Source: a virus
Lineage: Duplodnaviria > Heunggongvirae > Uroviricota > Caudoviricetes
Strand: one strand, 5' to 3'
Length of the DNA: 35,745 nucleotides
Virus record (IMG/VR): IMGVR_UViG_2548876857_000008
Part shown: one piece after another, positions 20 to 11,053 of the stretch
Layout of the letters: every line of letters begins with the position of its first letter
How positions within the stretch are numbered: position 1 is the stretch's first letter
The notes under the pieces: model-generated
Databases searched by the model: none
Told to the model about the DNA's origin: nothing
What the model saw: only the letters and a program-made list of their open reading frames with translations
Position numbers and translations under genes: made by a program

Positions 20-400
20 TCACTTCCGGGGTGATTTTACTGCTTCAGGTTCATCAATGATAGAGAATAATGGGAGCTGTCGGCGGGCGCTTTCAGAACG
101 CTGGATCTTTTTCACCACTTTGTAGATCCACTGCAAAGTCAGGTTGTACTTCTTCGCCAGTTCGCGGTAGTTGCGTCCATCACACTCCTGCCAGATTTTA
201 TAGTCCCGCGCCGATGTCATGAAGACCATGCCTTTGGGCAGGTAAATGGTTTGTCCGCCCCATGCCTGCATCATGTGATTAGCCACAGCGACGGCAATCT
301 GTTCAGCGATATCATCTTCCATTCCAACCATTTCTTTCAATGTGTTTGCGACGTGGTGCGCAAGGTCAGCAAAGATTTCTGGCTGTTGCGGTTCTTTCAT
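20..400 (-). CDS. mor: Mor/C-family transcriptional activator (middle operon regulator-like)
   Basis: Conserved Mor-like blocks GGQTIYLPKG and IWQECDGRNYRELAKKYNLTLQWIYKVVKK. ATG at 400 overlaps the upstream stop (ATGA) and follows a GGGAGGGG ribosome-binding site; the ORF-track start at 427 has none. Confidence 0.8.
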   Translation of the reverse strand: MKEPQQPEIFADLAHHVANTLKEMVGMEDDIAEQIAVAVANHMMQAWGGQTIYLPKGMVFMTSARDYKIWQECDGRNYRELAKKYNLTLQWIYKVVKKIQRSESARRQLPLFSIIDEPEAVKSPRK

Positions 401-801
401 CTTCCCCTCCCGACACGTGCCAGCCATTTTTTCAGTTGTTCAATCACCTGGCTGGCCTGCTGATTGTTAAGCCACTCCAGCCGGGCGACGCCTGTCTGGC
501 GTTGTACGAACTTATTTAACGCCGACAAACTGCCATCTCTGACCGTACCGCTGGAAGTCAGTTCCTGCCATAACGCGCGGATCATCGCAGACTGCTTATC
601 ATAGGAAGGAGGCTCTTTAGATGTGACTTTGAAGCCCTGTTTTTTCATCACAGCGAAAGCCTTAGCCAGTTGTGAGTCGCTCATTACCCGTAACGATTCA
701 CTGCCGCAGTGTGTTTTAAGTAATTGTCGATACGTAGCCTCATCCAGTCGCAGCTCTCGCCGGGCAACATGGATAACCCGCAATAATTGTGCTCTGTTCA
801 T
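397..801 (-). CDS. gemA: GemA / Mu gp16-like early regulatory protein
   Basis: 134 aa directly upstream of Mor, as in Mu. Basic N-terminus (MNRAQLLRVIHVARRELRLDEATYRQLL) resembles the gp16/GemA family. GGAGG precedes the ATG at 801. Confidence 0.6.
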   Translation of the reverse strand: MNRAQLLRVIHVARRELRLDEATYRQLLKTHCGSESLRVMSDSQLAKAFAVMKKQGFKVTSKEPPSYDKQSAMIRALWQELTSSGTVRDGSLSALNKFVQRQTGVARLEWLNNQQASQVIEQLKKWLARVGRGR

Positions 802-855: not shown

Positions 856-1149
856 CTACACGTCACCACATTGGCAGATCCCAACCATCCTTACGGTTAA
901 TACCGATGGCTCATTTGCGGGAGATATGCAGCTTTTATCGAGGCAGTAATCTTTGCCACGAGATCGGACAACCGCTGAATCATTATTGACGCTGGTTATT
1001 TTCCCTGTTTTTGTCGTTATTCTGATGCGAGTGTTACGGGCGCTCATAGATACTTGCTGCCAGGCAAAACTCACTTTGTCGCCAATGCGAAACGGTACTT
1101 CTTTCTCGGCATATTTCCCGCAGGCCGGGCATTTAACAAACATCATCAT
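856..1149 (-). CDS. hypothetical zinc-ribbon protein
   Basis: 97 aa with N-terminal CPAC and C-terminal CQCG motifs. Overlaps the upstream gene by 17 nt within the early operon. Confidence 0.5.
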   Translation of the reverse strand: MMMFVKCPACGKYAEKEVPFRIGDKVSFAWQQVSMSARNTRIRITTKTGKITSVNNDSAVVRSRGKDYCLDKSCISPANEPSVLTVRMVGICQCGDV

Positions 1150-1411
1150 TTACTACCCCCAACCATTCAGCCAGTCGCGCCAGCTTTTTCGCTTTGCGAT
1201 AATCGATTAGCTTTTCCATACCGTTCTGCCGGAACTGTTCGATCATGATTTCCACATCAGCCATTTCATCCGCCAGCACAGCTTCGTCACAGAAGCCTGT
1301 CAAACCACGCGCGGTTGCGGCGCTGAGTTCGGCTGCTTCCTCGGCTAGCTTCGCCAGTTGTTTCTCCGGCCCCCACTTGCGTAAGGCTGCACGGTAGATA
1401 AGCGTTTTCAT
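1133..1411 (-). CDS. MazG-like nucleotide pyrophosphohydrolase (small all-alpha NTP-PPase)
   Basis: 92 aa with acidic motifs LAEEAAELSAA and DEMADVEIMIEQF typical of MazG/HisE-type NTP pyrophosphatases. GGAGG precedes the ATG at 1411. Confidence 0.55.
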   Translation of the reverse strand: MKTLIYRAALRKWGPEKQLAKLAEEAAELSAATARGLTGFCDEAVLADEMADVEIMIEQFRQNGMEKLIDYRKAKKLARLAEWLGVVNDDVC

Positions 1412-1602
1412 GCGCCTACCTCCGTTGCCGGGGTTAATTCCATAGTGGGAATAAAGGCGTTATAAGCCTGCTCGCAGTGCGGACAGAGCAAAATTAAATT
1501 TACGCACCACTCCTTATATTCATCAGTCTGCAATAAGCTTGCTTGTTGAAAATCCAGTTCAGTGACTTCTTTTTTGCAGTACACACATTTAATCGTCGCC
1601 AT
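1408..1602 (-). CDS. hypothetical small zinc-binding protein
   Basis: Two Cys pairs (CVYCKK, CPHCEQ). ATG at 1602 with a GGGGGTG ribosome-binding site; the track start at 1617 is TTG. Coupled to its neighbours. Confidence 0.5.
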   Translation of the reverse strand: MATIKCVYCKKEVTELDFQQASLLQTDEYKEWCVNLILLCPHCEQAYNAFIPTMELTPATEVGA

Positions 1603-1603
1603 C

Positions 1604-2221
1604 TCACACCCCCGCAATATTCAGCACGACAGGCTGGTATTTATCGCTATCACCGACACGCTGATAAACCCGCACGTAACTTGTTGAGTTCACCACCTGC
1701 ACCGACTCGCCAATGGCCTCCATTGCCTTCAGCCAGCGTGGGTCGGTAATTTCATAGCGGCGCAGCGCCAGTACGCGCCCGGTGGAGATGTTGCCCTCTT
1801 TATCTTCTGCGAATGCTTTCTCCACGATGACCTTCAGCTCTGGCGTGGCCTGTGCCGTCCACTCATGCAGGCACTCATCAATCAAGTTACGGGCGGCTTG
1901 TAACCGTTCATCAAAGGCGATGTTTTCGGCAATCTGGCGCTGGATCTTGTAGCGACCATCAAATGAATGCAGGGTGATGTTGCCTTTCTTGCCTCCGGGG
2001 CGGGCATCATATTGTTCAACGGACAAATCAATAAACGCCTGTATATCGCCAAAACAGCGGTTTTTAAACTCAAGTAATTCAGCATTCATTTTCATTGCGT
2101 CGGCGACGATCTCCTTTACCAGCGCATCGCGTGCGCGGTCAATGGGCTTGATCATAGACTCGGGAACCAGACAACCTTTGGCGTCCTGCCAGTAACCTGC
2201 GGGGATAGTTTTTTCAGTCAT
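1604..2221 (-). CDS. hypothetical early protein (possibly DUF3164-like, as found in Mu-like phages)
   Basis: 205-aa ORF with ATG at 2221 and an upstream GGAG. Family assignment is from memory only. Confidence 0.55.
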   Translation of the reverse strand: MTEKTIPAGYWQDAKGCLVPESMIKPIDRARDALVKEIVADAMKMNAELLEFKNRCFGDIQAFIDLSVEQYDARPGGKKGNITLHSFDGRYKIQRQIAENIAFDERLQAARNLIDECLHEWTAQATPELKVIVEKAFAEDKEGNISTGRVLALRRYEITDPRWLKAMEAIGESVQVVNSTSYVRVYQRVGDSDKYQPVVLNIAGV

Positions 2222-2292: not shown

Positions 2293-2388
2293 TTAATTAA
2301 ATAAGGCTATGAATATAAAAATCAGTGTAGTTATAGCGCTGGCCCATAATACAAAACGGTCAGCCAGCGATATCTTGCGGTATTGCAT
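2293..2388 (-). CDS. candidate small hydrophobic peptide (31 aa) downstream of B
   Basis: Hand-translated MQYRKISLADRFVLWASAITTLIFIFIALFN. ATG at 2388-2386 preceded by GGAAAGGA; TAA at 2295-2293. Below the ORF-track size cut-off. Confidence 0.3.
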   Translation of the reverse strand: MQYRKISLADRFVLWASAITTLIFIFIALFN

Positions 2389-2423
2389 CACGTCCTTTCC
2401 GGTTAATTTGTGAAATACCATTT

Positions 2424-3548
2424 TCACACTCCTTTAATCACATCCGCATTCACCACCGGCACGCCGATATCAGCGGCCAGATTCATTGCGGCGATAACCA
2501 GATTCCCCAGCGCCAGCGGATAAAGCAGACTGACGTCACCGCGTCGGGATGAATTACATAATCGGGCGCGGATAGCATCGGCGGTGCTATCATCCAGCAC
2601 CTCGGAAACACCTTTCCCGGTACGCTGAAATTTGAACGCCAGAAACGCTTCCAGATAGTTATCCAGCGGCAGCAGTTCGACGACCTCGCAGCGCTGTACC
2701 ACTTCGCGCACCTCCTGATTACGTTCAGAAAGTTTCAGCTTTAGCTCCGGCTGGCCAATCAACACCACCGACAGCAGTTTTTTAAAGCCGTCCTCCAGCT
2801 CAAAGAACCGCTTCAAATGCTTGAGCGTCGGCACCGGTAGCGAGTGCGCCTCTTCAATAACCAGACAATGTGAGAACCCGGCGCGGGCCGACTCTTTCAG
2901 CACCCGGTGCAACTGGCGGTAACGGGCCTCCTGCGAGCGTTTGACGTTCTCCAGCGGTGCGATGGTGTTGATGATGGCCTCGGCAATCGACGCCGCTTTC
3001 AGAGTTTTGCCTTTGGCGTCGTTGTCTTCCATCGCAATGATGTACGGTTCGATGAGGATAACTGGCGCGTTTTCACGGTTGATGCGATCAGCCAGGTCAC
3101 GGCGTAGCGTGGTTTTCCCTGCGCCGGATTCGCCAACTACGGCGATAAATCCGCCATGTCGCGCGGTCTGATACAGTGCTTCACGCACGTAGCGGATATC
3201 TGGCGTGGTGAACACGTCGTCCGCACTCTGCATAACCTCATCGGCGAACGGGTCGCGGAACAACCCAAAATGCTTCTTCGCCGCTGGATTTAATACCTGT
3301 TTTGCCAGTAACATATTTTCGTCCTCACTGGATGATGTACCGGTGCAGGCGGTGGCCGCCGTCTGCGCCTCCTTCAGTTCAATACCTTTTTCTGCAAAAA
3401 ATGTGCTGATGCGCTCCCGTAGTTCTTCTGTTTTCGGCCACAGGCCGTGATTAACCATCTGCGCGATAACCGCTGCGGAAACTCCGGTAGCCTGTGCTAC
3501 TGCTGCCTGAGTGATGCCACGCTGGCGCAACTGTTGTTTAATCTGCAT
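2424..3548 (-). CDS. MuB-like transposition ATPase (AAA+ target-DNA activator)
   Basis: N-terminal helix-turn-helix (GITQAAVAQATGVSAAVIAQ) and Walker A VVGESGAGKTT. Immediately downstream of the transposase, as in Mu. AGGGGGAG precedes the ATG at 3548. Confidence 0.85.
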   Translation of the reverse strand: MQIKQQLRQRGITQAAVAQATGVSAAVIAQMVNHGLWPKTEELRERISTFFAEKGIELKEAQTAATACTGTSSSEDENMLLAKQVLNPAAKKHFGLFRDPFADEVMQSADDVFTTPDIRYVREALYQTARHGGFIAVVGESGAGKTTLRRDLADRINRENAPVILIEPYIIAMEDNDAKGKTLKAASIAEAIINTIAPLENVKRSQEARYRQLHRVLKESARAGFSHCLVIEEAHSLPVPTLKHLKRFFELEDGFKKLLSVVLIGQPELKLKLSERNQEVREVVQRCEVVELLPLDNYLEAFLAFKFQRTGKGVSEVLDDSTADAIRARLCNSSRRGDVSLLYPLALGNLVIAAMNLAADIGVPVVNADVIKGV

Positions 3549-3557
3549 AACTCCCCC

Positions 3558-5303
3558 TTAACCGCCGACTACGTTCAGTTGCACTCGGGCGGTAAGCTGC
3601 TGCGCGGCGGCGTCCAGTTCTTCTTCCGCCACGCCTTCTGGCCAGCGTTTCACCAGTTCCTGATACAGTGCGACGTTCCATTCCGGCAACCGTGCTTTCA
3701 GCGCCTTCGCCGCCTCGACGTGAGTCAGACGCCGGGCTTCAACGCGTGGAGCGCGTACCGGGGAATCCTGACCACGACGCGGCAGGAACGCGGGCAGTTC
3801 GCTGTCGGTGATGGGTTTATACGGGTCAAGCCTGCCGCCGAACGGCAGCGCCTTCGCTTTACGCGCCGCAGCCGCGTCCGTCTCGTTATCTGTTCCGGTA
3901 ACAATCTGCTCAATCTGTTTAGCCGCAGTCTGCGCGGGTGTATCGGCGTGGCGCTTGTGATTCTGGCCCAGCACCGCCGCGCCTTCGGCAAAGCCGTATT
4001 CGTCCTTGCGGACTTCCTCCACCAGGTGAAAATACTCGTGGCCATCGTCACCGATGAGCACTACCTGCGCGGCATCGCTGCGCCACGGATTGCGGGTGAT
4101 CATCAGTTTTTCACCCACCATCACATCTGGCACGGTGGAGACGTCGTATTCCGTACCCTGAAACGACACGCGCAGCTTCGGCGTTATCTTGCGGCTTTCC
4201 GGCGCGGCAACAGCCAGTTCGCGGCAGACCTCCACCGATGGCGCTTTGATAAGCTGCTGCGCGGTGATGGTCATCCAGACGTTACTACGCGACTTGCCGT
4301 GGCGGGTGTGAATCGCGGTGGCGTTGAAGTGCTGCCGCCACAGGCGCGCTTTGGCGTTCAGTTCCTCCAGGCTGTGAACCGGCTGGAACTTCAGCCCCGG
4401 TTCAAAGCGGCGTTCGATAATGTCGCGCGCCTTTTCCACCTGCCCGGTGGCGCGGGCGTTGTGGGCTTTATGCGCCACCACGTCAATGCCCAGCGAACGA
4501 CAGAGGTTCTTCGTCATAGCGGCGGTGTTGGCCGAGCCGGGGTCGAGATACAACATATGCGGCACGCCGTGGAGCACATCCGCGCCGCCGCGCTCCTGCA
4601 TGGCATTGATGAGAACGGAACAGAGATTTTCGCCAGACTCCGCCCCCATCACGTATTCAACGTAGATCCAGCCGCTGGTATGGTCGGTCAGTTCATAGCT
4701 CCATACCCGGTCACTGGCGATACGTTGCAGGTTCTTCGGCTTGTTTTTGTAGAACGTCGCGCTGTCCATCACCTGTAACCCGCGCTGGCCGTTGCTGAGG
4801 TAGTACAGCGTGCAGAGCGAGGCGTCGATTTCCCAGACGTGATTGGGGTGCAGACTGGCAAGCTCCGTCACTGGCGCGGGCTGGCTGAGTTGATCCGGGT
4901 GCAGGCCGTAGCCACGCAGCGCCCGGATGATGGTGCTTTCTGACAATGGCACCCACTCGCCGCTTTCCTCATCCAGCCGCCCGGCGTCAATCTCGCCGTT
5001 GGCGCGTAACATCTCCACGGCATCAATGACGGAATACAGGCGCTTGCCGTTCTTACGGGTGGCTTCCGTCAGCGTAGCGGAAATCATCACCGCCTCATCG
5101 CGGGTCAGCGCGGTTTTTCCGGCGTCGGTGCGGCGCTTGCGTTTATCGGTCACGGCAACCTCCTTTATTCTGCGTAACAGCGTGGCGCGGGACAGGCCAA
5201 GTTCCGCGCAGGCGGCAGTGTAGATTGCGCCGCGTGCGCCATGCCCGGCCTGCCGTGCAGCCTGAGCAACAGCAACTAAGCGTTCGGTCATGACGGCGCT
5301 CAT
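3558..5303 (-). CDS. MuA-like DDE transposase (rve/integrase-core superfamily)
   Basis: N-terminal helix-turn-helix, then candidate D-D-E residues (HVWEIDAS, LYLDPGSANT, ATGQVEKARD; D to E spacing 36 aa). Lies between Ner and B. ATG at 5303 has a GGAAGG site 9 nt upstream; the track start at 5312 has zero spacing. Confidence 0.8.
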   Translation of the reverse strand: MSAVMTERLVAVAQAARQAGHGARGAIYTAACAELGLSRATLLRRIKEVAVTDKRKRRTDAGKTALTRDEAVMISATLTEATRKNGKRLYSVIDAVEMLRANGEIDAGRLDEESGEWVPLSESTIIRALRGYGLHPDQLSQPAPVTELASLHPNHVWEIDASLCTLYYLSNGQRGLQVMDSATFYKNKPKNLQRIASDRVWSYELTDHTSGWIYVEYVMGAESGENLCSVLINAMQERGGADVLHGVPHMLYLDPGSANTAAMTKNLCRSLGIDVVAHKAHNARATGQVEKARDIIERRFEPGLKFQPVHSLEELNAKARLWRQHFNATAIHTRHGKSRSNVWMTITAQQLIKAPSVEVCRELAVAAPESRKITPKLRVSFQGTEYDVSTVPDVMVGEKLMITRNPWRSDAAQVVLIGDDGHEYFHLVEEVRKDEYGFAEGAAVLGQNHKRHADTPAQTAAKQIEQIVTGTDNETDAAAARKAKALPFGGRLDPYKPITDSELPAFLPRRGQDSPVRAPRVEARRLTHVEAAKALKARLPEWNVALYQELVKRWPEGVAEEELDAAAQQLTARVQLNVVGG

Positions 5304-5305
5304 GG

Positions 5306-5605
5306 TCAGCATCCTTCCGGTAGTTCGGGAACTAACATCCAGTGGGTGATCTGTTTTGCCGGGTACGTTTCACTGGTGCAGTGAAACTCGCCATCAATAT
5401 AGTTAGCGGTTTCCACGCCGTAGCCATCACAGACCAGCACAAGGTCATAGTCACCAGGCAGTTGTGCGTCAGTGGCTATCCACGGTGAGGCCAGCGCATC
5501 CTTAAAAGCGACTCTCAGCAGTCGGCCACCGAGGATATCGGCGTTAAAGTGGTAACTCGGCTCCTGCGGAGCCTTAGCGAAATCAATAACTAATGTGCGG
5601 ATCAT
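5306..5605 (-). CDS. hypothetical early protein
   Basis: 99 aa; its ATG at 5605 overlaps the upstream stop (ATGA). Confidence 0.5.
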   Translation of the reverse strand: MIRTLVIDFAKAPQEPSYHFNADILGGRLLRVAFKDALASPWIATDAQLPGDYDLVLVCDGYGVETANYIDGEFHCTSETYPAKQITHWMLVPELPEGC

Positions 5606-7331: not shown

Positions 7332-7412
7332 TTGTTCCCTCTGAGCTATTATGTACTCAATTGGGTTTATTGTACGTACTCAAACGGGCAAGTCAACGAC
7401 TAATATGCACAA
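7332..7412. promoter_or_regulatory. divergent early/repressor control region with repeated GTAC-core elements
   Basis: 81-bp gap between divergent ner and repressor starts. GTACTCAA occurs at 7353-7360 and 7376-7383, with TGTAC at 7352 and 7371. A TAATAT -10-like hexamer lies at 7401-7406. Confidence 0.45.
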
Positions 7413-7823
7413 ATGAACATAAAAGAAAGACTCAAAAAAATACTCGCTGACAAAGCGTTATCAATCACTGATGCTGCCGCACAGTGCGATATCCCATATC
7501 GTTCTCTACAAAACTATCTGCGTGGCGAGCGAGAACCAAATGCGGAGGCATTGATCTCAATAGGTACCCATTTGGGTATAAATATTGATTGGCTGCTCAC
7601 CGGCAGAGGAGGAATGTATCTGTCTGAACATGCGGATGTTTTGACTGAGCAGCCGGAATACAGCCATGCCGATTTGAAGTTACTGGAATTTTTGAATCAG
7701 TTGGAACCGGATGTACGAAAGGATTTGTTACGCAGTGCTGAAGAAAAACAGCGAGTGGCCGCCCTAGAAAAAAGATTAGAGGAATTGGCTTTAGAACTCG
7801 AAAGCCTAAAACGTTCGGCGTAA
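7413..7823 (+). CDS. XRE-family HTH repressor (c/cI-like)
   Basis: N-terminal HTH (LSITDAAAQCDIPYRSLQNYLRGEREPNAEALISIGTHLGINIDWLL) and coiled-coil C-terminus. Divergent from ner. No S24 peptidase domain. Confidence 0.7.
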   Translation: MNIKERLKKILADKALSITDAAAQCDIPYRSLQNYLRGEREPNAEALISIGTHLGINIDWLLTGRGGMYLSEHADVLTEQPEYSHADLKLLEFLNQLEPDVRKDLLRSAEEKQRVAALEKRLEELALELESLKRSA

Positions 7824-7861
7824 AGTGTTCTCATTAAGAACAAAACATGAAGGACTATGTT

Positions 7862-8383
7862 ATGAAACACTTTTTCTTACCTTTGGGGGTTTGTGCGCTG
7901 TTGTTGTCGGGATGTGGTGATGACGATGTTACACAGCCATCTGCATCGACAATGTTTACTGTTGAAACCGATAGTCCGGTAGTGAAGCGCGAATTGCCCT
8001 TTATTCGCCAACAGTGTCCAGGACTGGATAAATACGCAGCAAACTTTGATAAATTTAAGGTCTACGACGACACGATGCGTCCGGTGACAACGGTGGAGTT
8101 TCACGTCAAGAATGAGAACAGCATACCCGGTAATTACACCGCCTCTGATCATACCTGTTTCCTTTTCATCTCCAACAATACCCACGAAGTGAAGATTTCA
8201 AAATCCGCCTGCCAGTCTGTTTGCTTCGATAAAGCGGATGTGCCTGGTGGGGATCTGGTTGTGAAACTGGATAAAGAAAGAGTTCCTATGACTGCTGATA
8301 AGAAGCCGCCGCGCGAGGGGTGCCTGATGGTTTACTCGCCAGAGCCAAACGGGGATTACTGGACGTGTCCAAGACAAGATTAA
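7862..8383 (+). CDS. lipoprotein (signal peptide with lipobox LLSGC)
   Basis: MKHFFLPLGVCALLLSGC then a Cys-rich mature part. AGGA lies 7 nt before the ATG at 7862. Begins 38 bp after the repressor stop. Confidence 0.7.
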   Translation: MKHFFLPLGVCALLLSGCGDDDVTQPSASTMFTVETDSPVVKRELPFIRQQCPGLDKYAANFDKFKVYDDTMRPVTTVEFHVKNENSIPGNYTASDHTCFLFISNNTHEVKISKSACQSVCFDKADVPGGDLVVKLDKERVPMTADKKPPREGCLMVYSPEPNGDYWTCPRQD

Positions 8384-8460
8384 ACATGTTGTAAACAAAA
8401 CAAAAAAGCGTGCAGACAGCACGCATTTACTATCTAACTCTACTGAAGGTTTCAGATTCT

Positions 8461-9492
8461 ATGCCAGCAAATGAACCTGCAAATGCAATCGTTGTAAATC
8501 ATGTGGTTATTCACCTTTTAGATAAAGAGCCGCATGGGGTGACATCCTTACAGCTTAGCCCAGCAGAGAGTGGCGTCACCGCAGCATCACAACGCTTAAT
8601 AGATGATATCTGTGGGAAATATGCAGGGCGAATGGGGAAAGGTTATGGCCATTTTGAAGATGACCCTGACAATTACCCGATGCAAACAATCGTATCAGAC
8701 TATTTAGCTCAAGAGCATCCTGATGATTTTTACCGTAGCTCCTGCCGCATGATTCGTCATCTGGAATCTCGGATTCAAACAACACCACTCGCTACTGGTG
8801 GCTATGTTCTATTCGCCCACATTACGATGAATCAACACGAGCATATTTTAGTTGCCATGTTAAGCCCCACGACGGGAACTGCGGTTAACGATGCCTTTGC
8901 TATCCAGGAAAGTGTCTACCTTGATATCGACAAGCTACGTGTGGCGGGGCGTATTGACATTACGTCCTGGCAATCAGGTGCCGAACGTTATATAAGTTTC
9001 CTGAAAGGGAGCAATGCTGTATCTGGTTACTTTAAGCAGTTCCTGGGCTGTAACGATGTTTTGATCGCCAAGCGTGAAACAGAGAAATTGCGGGATGCGT
9101 TGAAAGAGTTTGCGACTGAGCAAGGGCTTGACCCCGCACGTCGAGAGGCTTTTCTGCAAACGGCCCATGACCATTTGAAGCAACTGAGCAAAGATGGTGA
9201 GCCTGTAGATCTGACAACCTTTGTGAACGCAGTCTGGCCACAAGAACCAGAACTGCTATCGACTAAGCTGGCCAACCAAGAACTGGAACTGTCGGATGGT
9301 TTTGTCCCAGATGGACGCGTACTAAAAGGAATCATTTCCTTTAAAGGAAAGTCCAATCATTGGGAGCTAAAGTTTGATCGTGCTGGTCTTCAAGATGGTT
9401 CAATTGAGTATAATCGTGATCAGGATGTAATCATTCTAAGGAATATTCCTGATAGCTTCAGAGAAGAGATACTGGATGAGGTTGAGGAGTGA
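8461..9492 (+). CDS. NdpA/YejK-like nucleoid-associated protein homolog (NA37 family)
   Basis: GGYVLFAHITMNQHEHILVAMLS and YISFLKGSNAVSGYFKQFLGC closely parallel E. coli YejK ([23 protein letters not shown] and [23 protein letters not shown]). Length is about the same. The track start at 8410 is GTG; ATG at 8461. Confidence 0.7.
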   Translation: MPANEPANAIVVNHVVIHLLDKEPHGVTSLQLSPAESGVTAASQRLIDDICGKYAGRMGKGYGHFEDDPDNYPMQTIVSDYLAQEHPDDFYRSSCRMIRHLESRIQTTPLATGGYVLFAHITMNQHEHILVAMLSPTTGTAVNDAFAIQESVYLDIDKLRVAGRIDITSWQSGAERYISFLKGSNAVSGYFKQFLGCNDVLIAKRETEKLRDALKEFATEQGLDPARREAFLQTAHDHLKQLSKDGEPVDLTTFVNAVWPQEPELLSTKLANQELELSDGFVPDGRVLKGIISFKGKSNHWELKFDRAGLQDGSIEYNRDQDVIILRNIPDSFREEILDEVEE

Positions 9493-10697
9493 GTATCAGT
9501 TTTGAGCAACTGGTGGGATTGTACAGGCAGATTACTTTCGGTAACGATATGGCCGAAGGTACGCTGGTGCTTACCCCAGAATCCTGCGAGTTGCTCAACG
9601 CTTTGCTTGAGGACACCGATACATATGGGATCTCTCTGGCACAAGGTGAAGTAGTGGCTGGCCAGCAGGTGTCGCTTTTTGTGAACGCCCCAAAGACAAA
9701 GCTAGGTCTGCTATGCCGTAATTTGGCGGCTTTGTTAAAGTCGCCAAAACACCAAAGCGAGGAACCTTCCCGCTACTACCTGATCGACAGCCAATTTTAT
9801 AGTTCGGATGCGCCAACATCTGTAATTGAAAACTACCGCACTATCTTAACATTTCTGCGCCTGCTTAAAGAAAAGTCGGCATACTTTGATACCAGTGCAT
9901 ATGAATGCGTTTTTTTCCGCGCCGATGTATTTAAATTACCTATACGTTACAGTGCAGAAACCGTAGAAAATCTTGATAAAACGACACTCGATGAACTCAT
10001 TCAGCAGTTTTCTGACGACACACACAAAGAGCAGAAACTCTCGCTTTTAATTGAAAGCATCCAGTTAATCGGTCAGGAAACGGAAAACAATAAAGTCTTT
10101 GAGTATGCACTGAAGAACATTGATAAATTAAAAGTTGAGTTCGATAAGGGTTATCGCCTCTTCACTTCTGGGTTCTCATACGAAAAGGTTCTGGATGAAC
10201 TTAGAACCGCCAAAGTTGAAGAAATGGGACGTATCCATAAAGTCTTTTCAGATATCCAAAACCAGATACTGGGTATCCCAGTCGCAACCATTATCGTCGC
10301 GACACAAATCAAGAAAGCAAGTGGTGATGTCTATCAAACCATTATCAATAGCGCAGTTTTTTTAGGGGCCTTTGTTTTTGCTACGTTGGTTATGTTGACT
10401 TTGTTCAACCAGTTACAGACGTTAACTGCTATCAAAGAAGAACTTCGACATAAAAAGACTCAGGTTGATAAAAAGTATGCATCAATAAAAAATGACATTG
10501 ATAGTATCTTTTGCTCTGTACGTAAACGTCTTTGCCGTCAGGTTATCGCGTTCTGGTTTATTATTATGTTCCTTGTTGTCGCTATTATATCGACAGGATT
10601 AATTTACCTATACTGCACATACCCTGAAACATGGAATATCTTGGTTACAAAAGTGATGTCATGGCGGCATCACTTGAGTAATAAGCCCACTCCTTAA
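9489..10697 (+). CDS. hypothetical membrane protein (soluble N-domain of about 270 aa plus two C-terminal TM helices)
   Basis: GTG start overlaps the NdpA-like stop (GTGA). Hydrophobic helices IPVATIIVATQI...AVFLGAFVFATLVMLTLF and VIAFWFIIMFLVVAIISTGLIYLY. No enzymatic motif seen. Confidence 0.65.
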   Translation: MSISFEQLVGLYRQITFGNDMAEGTLVLTPESCELLNALLEDTDTYGISLAQGEVVAGQQVSLFVNAPKTKLGLLCRNLAALLKSPKHQSEEPSRYYLIDSQFYSSDAPTSVIENYRTILTFLRLLKEKSAYFDTSAYECVFFRADVFKLPIRYSAETVENLDKTTLDELIQQFSDDTHKEQKLSLLIESIQLIGQETENNKVFEYALKNIDKLKVEFDKGYRLFTSGFSYEKVLDELRTAKVEEMGRIHKVFSDIQNQILGIPVATIIVATQIKKASGDVYQTIINSAVFLGAFVFATLVMLTLFNQLQTLTAIKEELRHKKTQVDKKYASIKNDIDSIFCSVRKRLCRQVIAFWFIIMFLVVAIISTGLIYLYCTYPETWNILVTKVMSWRHHLSNKPTP

Positions 10698-10758
10698 ACC
10701 CCTTTAAAAGCCTTCCTGCCTACCATTCCGCACACTGCCTCCATCACCCAATGGAGGC
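10693..10758 (+). promoter_or_regulatory. candidate late promoter element (dyad motif plus start-site hairpin) before the lysis genes
   Basis: CTTAAACCCCTTTAAAAGCC at 10693-10712. Perfect 8-bp hairpin GCCTCCAT/ATGGAGGC at 10737-10758 contains the GGAGG site and the first ATG. Confidence 0.45.
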
Positions 10759-10762
10759 ACTT

Positions 10763-11053
10763 ATGAAAACTTCTCTTTTCCCGCGTTTATCCGGCTGGCT
10801 GGTGGCATCGGTGGTGTTGTTCGCGCTGATTGCGCTGATTTCCCCGCAGCAGCTTCCGGTCGTTGTTTACAAACTGAGCCTGATCTCGCTGGCGGCGGTG
10901 CTGGGCTACTGGCTGGATCGCAGCCTGTTTCCCTATGCGCGGCCAAATTATTTTCAGTCAGCGGAAAATGAACAACGTCTCTTTGCCGCCGCCATGCTGC
11001 GCCGTGCGGTGATTGTCGCGGCGGTGTGTCTGGCCGTGGCGATGGGGCTGTAG
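10763..11053 (+). CDS. putative holin or lysis membrane protein
   Basis: 97 aa with two or three hydrophobic helices, immediately before the transglycosylase gene. ATG at 10763 has GGAGG 5 nt upstream; ATG at 10751 is an alternative. Confidence 0.4.
   Translation: MKTSLFPRLSGWLVASVVLFALIALISPQQLPVVVYKLSLISLAAVLGYWLDRSLFPYARPNYFQSAENEQRLFAAAMLRRAVIVAAVCLAVAMGL

What the first reader, a model, noticed from the sequence alone, without database searches (positions are those of the whole stretch)
856..1617. MazG-like pyrophosphohydrolase flanked by two small zinc-ribbon proteins in the early operon
Small phage MazG-like enzymes hydrolyse nucleoside triphosphates or alarmones. In a transposable phage early operon this could blunt the stringent response or nucleotide-signal-based immunity. 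The flanking CxxC proteins are overlapped and co-translated with it and may be part of the same host-takeover module.
Basis: inference. Interest (0 to 1): 0.4.

Follow-up and report, generated by a model that had tools for sequence, protein, structure and literature searches.

The report
MazG-like pyrophosphatase in Mu-like phage
A 92-residue gene in the early operon of a Mu-like (BcepMu-type) phage is a genuine but ordinary member of a very large, already annotated family of small MazG-like nucleotide pyrophosphatases, and its two cysteine-rich neighbours are independent accessory genes, not fixed partners.

Summary
Three tightly packed minus-strand genes fill 856-1617: a 64-aa CxxC...CPHC protein (1408-1602), a 92-aa MazG-like protein (1133-1411) and a 97-aa CxxC...CxC protein (856-1149). 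They lie between DUF3164 and GemA/Mor in the early operon of a BcepMu-type transposable phage.

- Pfam PRA-PH scores just above its curated cut-off, and PHROG 2245 (NTP pyrophosphohydrolase) matches at E 1e-23.
- 14 of 60 family members match Pfam MazG.
- The EExxE...ExxD metal-binding motif is intact here and in 166 of 173 relatives.

RefSeq already names a 96%-identical E. coli copy "nucleoside triphosphate pyrophosphohydrolase family protein".

The "module" idea is not supported. MazG occurs without the upstream zinc protein in 36 of 83 loci. The zinc protein occurs without MazG in at least 13 of 51 loci. The 97-aa protein is confined to the closest relatives.

In non-Mu phages the same family sits beside primase/helicase genes, which favours a (d)NTP-pool role in replication. 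Alarmone or anti-defence activity has a precedent (Atd1) but was not tested. This is an ordinary new member of a known kind, of low interest.

The parts
1133..1411 (-). 92-aa single-domain MazG-like (all-alpha) nucleoside triphosphate pyrophosphohydrolase
1328..1342 (-). Codons for E24-E25-A-A-E28, the EExxE metal-binding motif
   Evidence: Read from the sequence. E24, E25 and E28 are conserved in 172, 168 and 170 of 173 relatives. hhalign places the motif on E. coli MazG YEEIDE, inside the aligned block 166-200; my own count within that block gives residues 170-175.
1256..1267 (-). Codons for E49-M-A-D52, the ExxD motif
   Evidence: Read from the sequence. E49 is conserved in 170 of 173 and D52 in 172 of 173 relatives. 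The motif aligns with EEMGD of the E. coli MazG C-terminal domain.
1408..1602 (-). 64-aa CxxC...CPHC small protein ('Zn64'), probably a zinc ribbon. An alternative TTG start at 1617 gives 69 aa.
   Evidence: PHROG 3401 (unknown function) matches at E 2e-30. Only sub-threshold Pfam zinc-ribbon hits were found. Four Cys are invariant in 27 distinct homologues. The ATGA overlap with MazG is seen.
856..1149 (-). 97-aa protein ('p97') with an N-terminal CPAC and a C-terminal CQC. Predicted to be a small beta-barrel, not a classical zinc ribbon.
1604..2221 (-). DUF3164 protein, the conserved upstream neighbour (context)
   Evidence: PF11363 matches at E 1.7e-82. It lies upstream of MazG in 37 of 83 loci, and directly adjacent to MazG in the second Mu-like clade.
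397..801 (-). GemA homologue (context; downstream end of the early region)
   Evidence: PF06252 matches at E 5e-35. It lies downstream of MazG in 70 of 83 loci.
20..427 (-). Mor-family late-transcription activator, the last gene of the operon
   Evidence: PF08765 matches at E 1.7e-39.
2424..5312 (-). MuB/ExeA-like ATPase (2424-3548) and DDE transposase (3558-5312), upstream in the same operon
   Evidence: ORFs are listed. PGAP names for the 96%-identical locus are. Both are 76% identical in DNA to the transposase gene region of phages KP12 and Phi06_2974 B.
7369..7396 (-). Promoter-like site (TTGACT-16-TACAAT), a candidate early promoter for the minus-strand operon
   Evidence: Consensus scan, 10 of 12 matches. 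This is a pattern match only; the number of sites found is not above shuffled expectation.

Best explanation
Gene 1133-1411(-) encodes a minimal, single-domain enzyme of the all-alpha NTP pyrophosphohydrolase (MazG/HisE) superfamily.

Mechanism, inferred from what is established for the superfamily: the subunit is a helical hairpin or bundle that oligomerises. The acidic cluster E24/E25/E28 + E49/D52 holds Mg2+. The conserved basic residues of the last helix (K73, K76, R79) hold the triphosphate. The alpha-beta phosphoanhydride bond of a (d)NTP is then cut to give (d)NMP + PPi.

Expression: the gene is transcribed with the rest of the early (semi-essential) operon of a BcepMu-type transposable phage and is translationally coupled to its neighbours.

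Most likely role: conditioning the nucleotide pool for phage DNA replication, here replicative transposition. This could mean removing non-canonical (d)NTPs or biasing pools.

The two Cys-rich neighbours are separate, exchangeable accessory genes of the mosaic region between the transposition genes and GemA/Mor.

What is shown: family membership, motif conservation, operon anatomy, and separability of the neighbours. What is inferred: catalysis, substrate and physiological role.
For: Family membership:
- PF01503 scores above its gathering score, and PHROG 2245 matches at E 1e-23.
- 14 of 60 relatives match PF03819 MazG.
- Weak but consistent profile hits to solved MazG-like NTP-PPases 5ie9, 2q73, 2gta and 2q5z all align on the EExxE...ExxD block.
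- The motif is intact in 166 of 173 relatives and aligns to the catalytic C-terminal domain of E. coli MazG.

Operon anatomy:
- The overlaps, Shine-Dalgarno sequences and lack of internal terminators are seen.

Replication link:
- In non-Mu phages the same family sits immediately next to VapE-like and Pox_D5-like primase/helicase genes and DUF6378.
- In Mu-like phages it sits after Gam or DUF3164.

Neighbours separable.
Against: - No enzymatic data exist for this subfamily, so the substrate is unknown.
- The Pfam hit clears its threshold by only 0.4 bits.
- A few very close relatives have lost catalytic residues (P0007, P0009/L089) yet look constrained, with dN/dS 0.09. This hints that a non-catalytic role may exist.
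- The replication role rests on gene neighbourhood only.
- A phage MazG-like enzyme with alarmone and anti-defence activity has been reported (Atd1).
Confidence: 0.6

Rival explanations
1. Alarmone or anti-defence enzyme. The MazG-like protein hydrolyses (p)ppGpp, or a defence-made nucleotide such as a chain-terminating ddhNTP. This prevents stringent-response-linked abortive infection, as reported for phage Atd1.
For: Atd1, a single-domain MazG-like protein of Pectobacterium phage PcCB7V, hydrolyses ppGpp (apparent Km about 50 uM) and protects cells from TIR-STING toxicity (bioRxiv 10.1101/2022.06.09.495361). The gene here is expressed early, alongside other host-takeover genes such as GemA and, in relatives, Gam.
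Against: - Cyanophage MazG neither binds nor hydrolyses (p)ppGpp and prefers dGTP/dCTP (PMC6850273).
- The window protein has no detectable sequence relative outside four Mu-like phages in 50,697 phage records, so it is not a close homologue of Atd1.
- There is no PADLOC hit.
- In non-Mu phages the family is linked to replication genes.
- MazG chemistry cuts linear alpha-beta pyrophosphate bonds. It therefore cannot degrade cyclic oligonucleotide signals.
Confidence: 0.2
2. Three-protein module. The Zn64, MazG-like and p97 proteins act as one complex, with the zinc proteins targeting or regulating the enzyme.
For: The three genes are overlapping and translationally coupled. Zn64 lies within 300 nt upstream of MazG in 47 of 83 MazG loci, and directly adjacent in most of the 38 MazG-positive Zn64 loci.
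Against: - MazG occurs without Zn64 in 36 of 83 loci, including a whole clade where it follows DUF3164 directly.
- Zn64 occurs without MazG in at least 13 of 51 evaluable loci.
- In about 10 loci another ORF is inserted between the two.
- p97 is present in only 5 of 53 Zn64 loci and 2 of 83 MazG loci.
- Small Cys-rich ORFs are common in phage early regions generally.
Confidence: 0.07
3. Non-catalytic (moonlighting) helical protein. The conserved function is binding a host or phage partner, as shown for staphylococcal phage dimeric dUTPases, and catalysis is dispensable.
For: Close relatives carry substitutions at E25/E28/E49/D52 (P0007; P0009/L089) yet keep the rest of the sequence. dN/dS between the window gene and L089 is 0.09. 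Family-specific invariant residues lie outside the metal motif: G14, Q18, Q59, K76 and R79.
Against: Only 7 of 173 relatives have a broken motif, and the window copy is intact. The exceptions may be recent decay in prophages. The extra invariant residues are just as well explained by substrate binding.
Confidence: 0.08
4. Not a MazG relative at all. It is a generic helical hairpin whose glutamate-rich helices attract spurious profile hits.
For: The best-scoring PDB sequence hits with the family profile are designed coiled coils. Foldseek found nothing at E<0.6. The Pfam score is only 0.4 bits over threshold.
Confidence: 0.05

Closest known systems
All-alpha NTP pyrophosphohydrolase superfamily (MazG PF03819 / HisE PRA-PH PF01503; Moroz et al. 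2005, cited from my own knowledge and in PMC9503650)
   Different: It is very divergent from every solved member (profile E>=0.04). It forms its own large subfamily with extra invariant residues G14, Q18, Q59, K76 and R79. The AF2 monomer is two long helices and not a compact four-helix bundle.
PHROG 2245 'nucleoside triphosphate pyrophosphohydrolase' and the RefSeq/PGAP 'nucleoside triphosphate pyrophosphohydrolase family protein' (WP_032217867.1 in E. coli A35)
   Same: Direct membership: E 1.2e-23 to the PHROG, and a 96%-identical locus with the same gene order.
   Different: None of substance. These are annotation labels, and no member close to this one has been assayed as far as I could find.
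Atd1, the MazG-like anti-TIR-defence protein of Pectobacterium phage PcCB7V (bioRxiv 10.1101/2022.06.09.495361)
   Same: Both are single-domain, phage-encoded MazG-like proteins.
   Different: There is no detectable close sequence relationship (one search found only Mu-like phages). I could not retrieve the Atd1 sequence to compare profiles. The genomic context differs: Atd1 came from a library of phage genes chosen for lying near phage nucleotidyltransferase (NTase) genes, whereas this gene sits in a Mu-type early operon.
Cyanophage S-PM2 MazG (PMC6850273)
   Same: It is a phage MazG-family pyrophosphohydrolase thought to act on the nucleotide pool during infection.
   Different: It is an experimentally characterised dGTP/dCTP-preferring enzyme with no (p)ppGpp activity. 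It belongs to a different phage type (T4-like myovirus) and is not retrieved by sequence search from this protein.
E. coli MazG (3cra), a tandem-domain enzyme in the relA-mazEFG locus
   Different: The host enzyme has 263 aa in two tandem domains and is linked to mazEF. The phage protein is a single 92-aa domain with no toxin-antitoxin linkage.

Membership tests
All-alpha NTP-PPase (MazG/HisE) superfamily | Significant match to a curated superfamily profile | tested here: met
   PF01503 scores 21.7 bits against gathering score 21.3, E 2.7e-4. PHROG 2245 matches at E 1.2e-23, and PHROGs 4856 and 715 match weakly. 14 of 60 family members match PF03819.
All-alpha NTP-PPase (MazG/HisE) superfamily | EExxE ... 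ExxD acidic metal-binding motif on two adjacent helices | tested here: met
   E24, E25, E28, E49 and D52 are present in the window protein. The full pattern is present in 166 of 173 relatives and aligns to the E. coli MazG catalytic block.
All-alpha NTP-PPase (MazG/HisE) superfamily | All-helical bundle fold resembling solved members | tested here: inconclusive
All-alpha NTP-PPase (MazG/HisE) superfamily | Mg2+-dependent hydrolysis of (d)NTP to (d)NMP + PPi; oligomer completes the active site | not testable with these tools
   Needs enzyme assays and a multimer structure.
E. coli-type MazG (stringent-response regulator) | Two tandem MazG domains (~263 aa) and linkage to relA-mazEF | tested here: not met
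   The window protein is a single 92-aa domain flanked by phage genes. The E. coli locus is shown for comparison.
Atd1-like anti-defence MazG | Sequence relatedness to Atd1 and (p)ppGpp hydrolysis | tested here: inconclusive
   tblastn of the window protein against 50,697 phage records returned only four Mu-like phages. The Atd1 sequence could not be obtained. Activity is not testable here.
Zinc ribbon (upstream 64-aa protein) | Two CxxC knuckles conserved across homologues | tested here: met
   C6, C9, C40 and C43 are invariant in 27 distinct homologues and in alignment A5.
Zinc ribbon (upstream 64-aa protein) | Match to a curated zinc-ribbon model above threshold, or a ribbon fold | tested here: not met
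   The best hit is PF23551 Zn_ribbon_20 at 18.9 bits against cut-off 27. NCBIfam hits are below cut-off.
Zinc ribbon (downstream 97-aa protein) | Two closely spaced CxxC knuckles forming a ribbon | tested here: inconclusive
Mu/BcepMu-type transposable phage early operon | DDE transposase + MuB-like ATPase followed by accessory genes, GemA and Mor, all on one strand | tested here: met
   Gene order is shown. PGAP names for the 96%-identical locus are. Related phage PhiKM is classified as Bcepmuvirus. The same order is found in most of the 83 loci.

The most novel reading that the evidence does not exclude
The small MazG-like enzymes of Mu-like phages may be early-expressed counter-defence enzymes, not housekeeping ones. 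They would hydrolyse alarmones or defence-made toxic nucleotides, for example viperin-type ddhNTPs. Alternatively they may act non-catalytically, as hinted by constrained relatives with dead active sites. The frequently co-located zinc-ribbon protein could serve as an optional adaptor.
Probability: 0.15. Interest if true: 0.55.

Novelty: new member of a known kind. Interest (0 to 1): 0.18.

Why it matters
As it stands the finding matters little. It confirms a routine annotation that PHROGs and RefSeq already carry. It also shows that the neighbouring Cys-rich genes are interchangeable cargo of the mosaic "semi-essential" early region of Mu-like phages.

Two modest points of value remain:
- The subfamily is very large (over 15,000 clusters at 50% identity). 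It is strongly phage-associated and biochemically uncharacterised, so a single substrate-profiling experiment would annotate thousands of genes.
- Published data on phage MazG proteins conflict (ppGpp hydrolysis by Atd1 versus dGTP/dCTP preference in cyanophage MazG). A genetically tractable, inducible E. coli Mu-like prophage would be a convenient place to settle what such enzymes do during infection.

Tried and rejected
- Direct phmmer of the 92-aa protein against PDB sequences gave only chance hits.
- Family-profile searches of PDB were topped by designed coiled coils. Genuine MazG-like entries appeared only at E 0.04-0.4.
- Foldseek against PDB gave nothing below E 0.6.
- hhalign of the family profile against the single E. 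coli MazG sequence aligned the right motifs, but with no statistical weight (probability 1%).
- I tried to reach Atd1 (phage PcCB7V) by tblastn with E. coli MazG against the phage collection. It was not among the 20 hits, and the preprint text gives no accession.
- PADLOC gave no meaningful hit for any of the four proteins.
- Rfam found no RNA family anywhere in the window.
- The repeat scan of 1-2600 showed only short two-copy matches consistent with chance.
- Literature searches for MazG in Mu-like phages and for DUF3164 returned nothing specific to this gene.
- I considered the idea that the three genes form an obligate module and rejected it on presence/absence data.

Full report
**What is in the sequence**

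The interval 856-1617 is filled exactly by three consecutive minus-strand ORFs:
- 1408-1617, 69 aa from a TTG start. The start is more probably the ATG at 1602, giving 64 aa, as in the PGAP annotation of a 96%-identical E. coli locus and as in all homologues. I call this protein "Zn64".
- 1133-1411, 92 aa, the MazG-like protein.
- 856-1149, 97 aa, "p97".

Reading the minus strand shows the junctions:
- The stop of the preceding DUF3164 gene and the Zn64 start form TGAgATG.
- The Zn64 stop and the MazG start share ATGA, with a GGAGG Shine-Dalgarno sequence 8 nt upstream.
- The MazG gene overlaps the p97 start by 17 nt, again behind a G-rich Shine-Dalgarno sequence.

No terminator-like site occurs on the minus strand between 5514 and the end of the operon. 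A promoter-like site (TTGACT-16-TACAAT) lies at 7396-7369.

Pairwise dN/dS against a diverged relative (L089) is 0.06, 0.09 and 0.10 for the three genes, though dS is saturated for two of them.

**Setting**

The minus-strand operon reads, from upstream to downstream:
- MarR-like and DUF3102 genes
- DDE transposase (3558-5312)
- MuB/ExeA-like ATPase (2424-3548)
- a 44-aa membrane ORF
- DUF3164 (E 2e-82)
- Zn64, MazG and p97
- GemA (E 5e-35)
- Mor (E 2e-39)

Late genes (holin, SLT transglycosylase and so on) run on the plus strand from about 10.7 kb. This is the BcepMu-type arrangement. The related Escherichia phage PhiKM is classified as Bcepmuvirus. The window itself is IMG/VR contig UViG_2579778940_000019.

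**Is the 92-aa protein MazG-like?**

Yes. The evidence is as follows.
- Pfam PRA-PH (HisE, same clan as MazG) scores 21.7 bits against a gathering score of 21.3.
- PHROG 2245 "nucleoside triphosphate pyrophosphohydrolase" matches at E 1.2e-23, and two further NTP-PPase PHROGs match weakly.
- A profile of 21 homologues recovers 15,416 cluster representatives at E<=1e-3 (6,669 at E<=1e-10), mostly 90-140 aa.
- 14 of 60 sampled members individually match Pfam MazG PF03819.
- The superfamily's metal-binding signature is present as E24-E25-x-x-E28 and, 20 residues later, E49-x-x-D52. The complete pattern is kept in 166 of 173 relatives whose mean column identity is only about 31%.
- hhalign places these motifs on YEEIDE...EEMGD of the catalytic C-terminal domain of E. 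coli MazG, though without statistical weight.

Neither applies. RefSeq already names the E. coli A35 orthologue "nucleoside triphosphate pyrophosphohydrolase family protein".

**The flanking proteins**

Zn64:
- It belongs to PHROG 3401, of unknown function.
- It keeps four invariant Cys (CxxC, then 30 residues, then CPxC) in 27 distinct homologues.
- It is very probably a zinc ribbon, although no curated zinc-ribbon model reaches threshold.

p97:
- It belongs to PHROG 3728, of unknown function.
- It has invariant C7/C10 and C92/C94 at its two ends.
- Its model is poor (pLDDT 59) and all-beta, with weak resemblance to SH3/Tudor/bL19 barrels.
- It is better described as a possibly zinc-clasped small beta-barrel than as a zinc ribbon.

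**Are they one module?**

No. Counts from the 83 viral loci found through the MazG profile:

| Neighbour | Loci with it |
|---|---|
| GemA downstream | 70 |
| Mor downstream | 67 |
| Zn64 upstream | 47 |
| DUF3164 upstream | 37 |
| p97 | 2 (the window itself and one non-adjacent distant homologue) |

A second Mu-like clade (for example Klebsiella phage Kp4866-3) has the MazG domain as the N-terminal half of a 162-aa Cys-free protein directly after DUF3164, with no Zn64.

In the other direction, 38 of the 53 loci found through Zn64 have MazG. Spacing between the two stop codons suggests that most of these are directly adjacent, and about 10 have another ORF inserted between the two genes. The other 15 lack MazG, and at least 13 of those run on to GemA/Mor, so the absence is real. 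p97 is in 5 of the 53.

Searches of 5.8 billion proteins found only 4-5 close homologues each for Zn64 and p97. p97 has no tblastn hit in 50,697 phage records.

The overlap and coupling therefore reflect the compact architecture of the operon, not a conserved functional unit.

**Likely function**

By homology, the protein should oligomerise and use the acidic cluster plus Mg2+ to hydrolyse (d)NTPs to (d)NMP + PPi. This step is inferred from established knowledge of the superfamily.

For the physiological role, context is the only guide.
- In non-Mu phages the same family lies immediately beside VapE-like (E 4e-79) and Pox_D5-like primase/helicase genes and DUF6378.
- In Mu-like phages it follows Gam or DUF3164.

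This favours nucleotide-pool conditioning for phage DNA replication.

Atd1, a phage MazG-like protein, hydrolyses ppGpp and rescues cells from TIR-STING (bioRxiv 10.1101/2022.06.09.495361). Against it, cyanophage MazG does not touch (p)ppGpp and prefers dGTP/dCTP (PMC6850273). The window protein is not a close relative of any non-Mu phage MazG, and I could not obtain the Atd1 sequence for a profile comparison. MazG chemistry also cannot open cyclic oligonucleotide signals.

My probabilities are:

| Reading | Probability |
|---|---|
| Active NTP-PPase with a replication/pool role | about 0.6 |
| Anti-defence or alarmone role | about 0.2 |
| Non-catalytic role | about 0.08 |
| Three-protein module | about 0.07 |
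| Not a MazG relative | about 0.05 |

**An oddity**

Several very close relatives carry substitutions in the catalytic residues:
- P0007 has E25A, E28G and E49A.
- P0009 and L089 have E25K, E28D and D52S/N.

They otherwise stay conserved, with dN/dS 0.09 for the window gene against L089. This may be prophage decay. It may also hint at a non-catalytic function such as that known for staphylococcal phage dimeric dUTPases (from my own knowledge). It affects only 7 of 173 relatives.

**Verdict**

The MazG assignment is correct and already present in public annotation. The "module" interpretation is not supported, and the proposed physiological role is untested. This is a new, uncharacterised member of a known kind, of low interest (0.18). 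The main residual value is that one substrate-profiling experiment would annotate a very large phage protein family.

Noticed in passing
window 7847-10697 (+): A low-GC island (0.44-0.47, against about 0.58 in the rest of the phage) lies between the CI-like repressor (7413-7823) and the holin (10751-11053). It carries a 178-aa unknown ORF, a 360-aa NA37/YejK-like nucleoid-associated protein (PF04245, E 6e-74) and a 402-aa unknown ORF. None hits PADLOC. It looks like acquired cargo (a moron or possible defence or lysogenic-conversion genes).
   Followed up: partly
P0007, P0009; L089:3192-3467: Close relatives (75-78% identical) of the MazG-like protein have lost catalytic residues (E25A/E28G/E49A, or E25K/E28D/D52S-N). 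They remain otherwise conserved, with dN/dS 0.09 for the window gene against L089. This could be decay or a non-catalytic role.
   Followed up: partly
L004:4980-5468 and L011-L017, L025, L026 etc.: In a second clade of Mu-like phages, with a 699-aa MuA-type transposase in L004, the MazG domain is the N-terminal half of a protein of about 162-165 aa. The protein has a Cys-free helical C-terminal extension and sits directly after DUF3164. Pfam detects nothing in the L004 example.
   Followed up: partly
L073:3185-5877, L078:1072-3768, L083:1113-1981: In non-Mu (probably Firmicutes/gut) phages, the same MazG-like family sits immediately upstream of VapE-like primase-helicase genes, or downstream of a Pox_D5-like primase domain. 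In L073 a DUF6378 gene lies about 500 nt upstream of it.
   Followed up: partly
L001 (E. coli A35, NZ_CP028740.1 1609009-1621770): The 96%-identical E. coli copy has a frameshifted MuB/ExeA-like gene. On this side the prophage ends right after Mor, next to ybjC. The early region matching the query was found in only 2 of 5,426 complete E. coli genomes.
   Followed up: no
window 2293-2427 (-): A 44-aa ORF with a hydrophobic C-terminal half overlaps the stop of the MuB-like gene by 4 nt (GTG start). It is conserved only in the closest relatives, 4 of the 53 Zn64 loci.
   Followed up: no
window 3447-4778 (+): A 443-aa ORF runs antisense to the transposase gene in a region of 58-61% GC. It is most likely a spurious ORF produced by high GC content, not a gene.
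   Followed up: no
window 397-427: The GemA and Mor reading frames overlap by 31 nt if the first ATG of Mor is used. PGAP calls a shorter Mor (381 nt) in the E. coli copy, which overlaps GemA by only 4 nt. The Mor start in the window is therefore uncertain.
   Followed up: no
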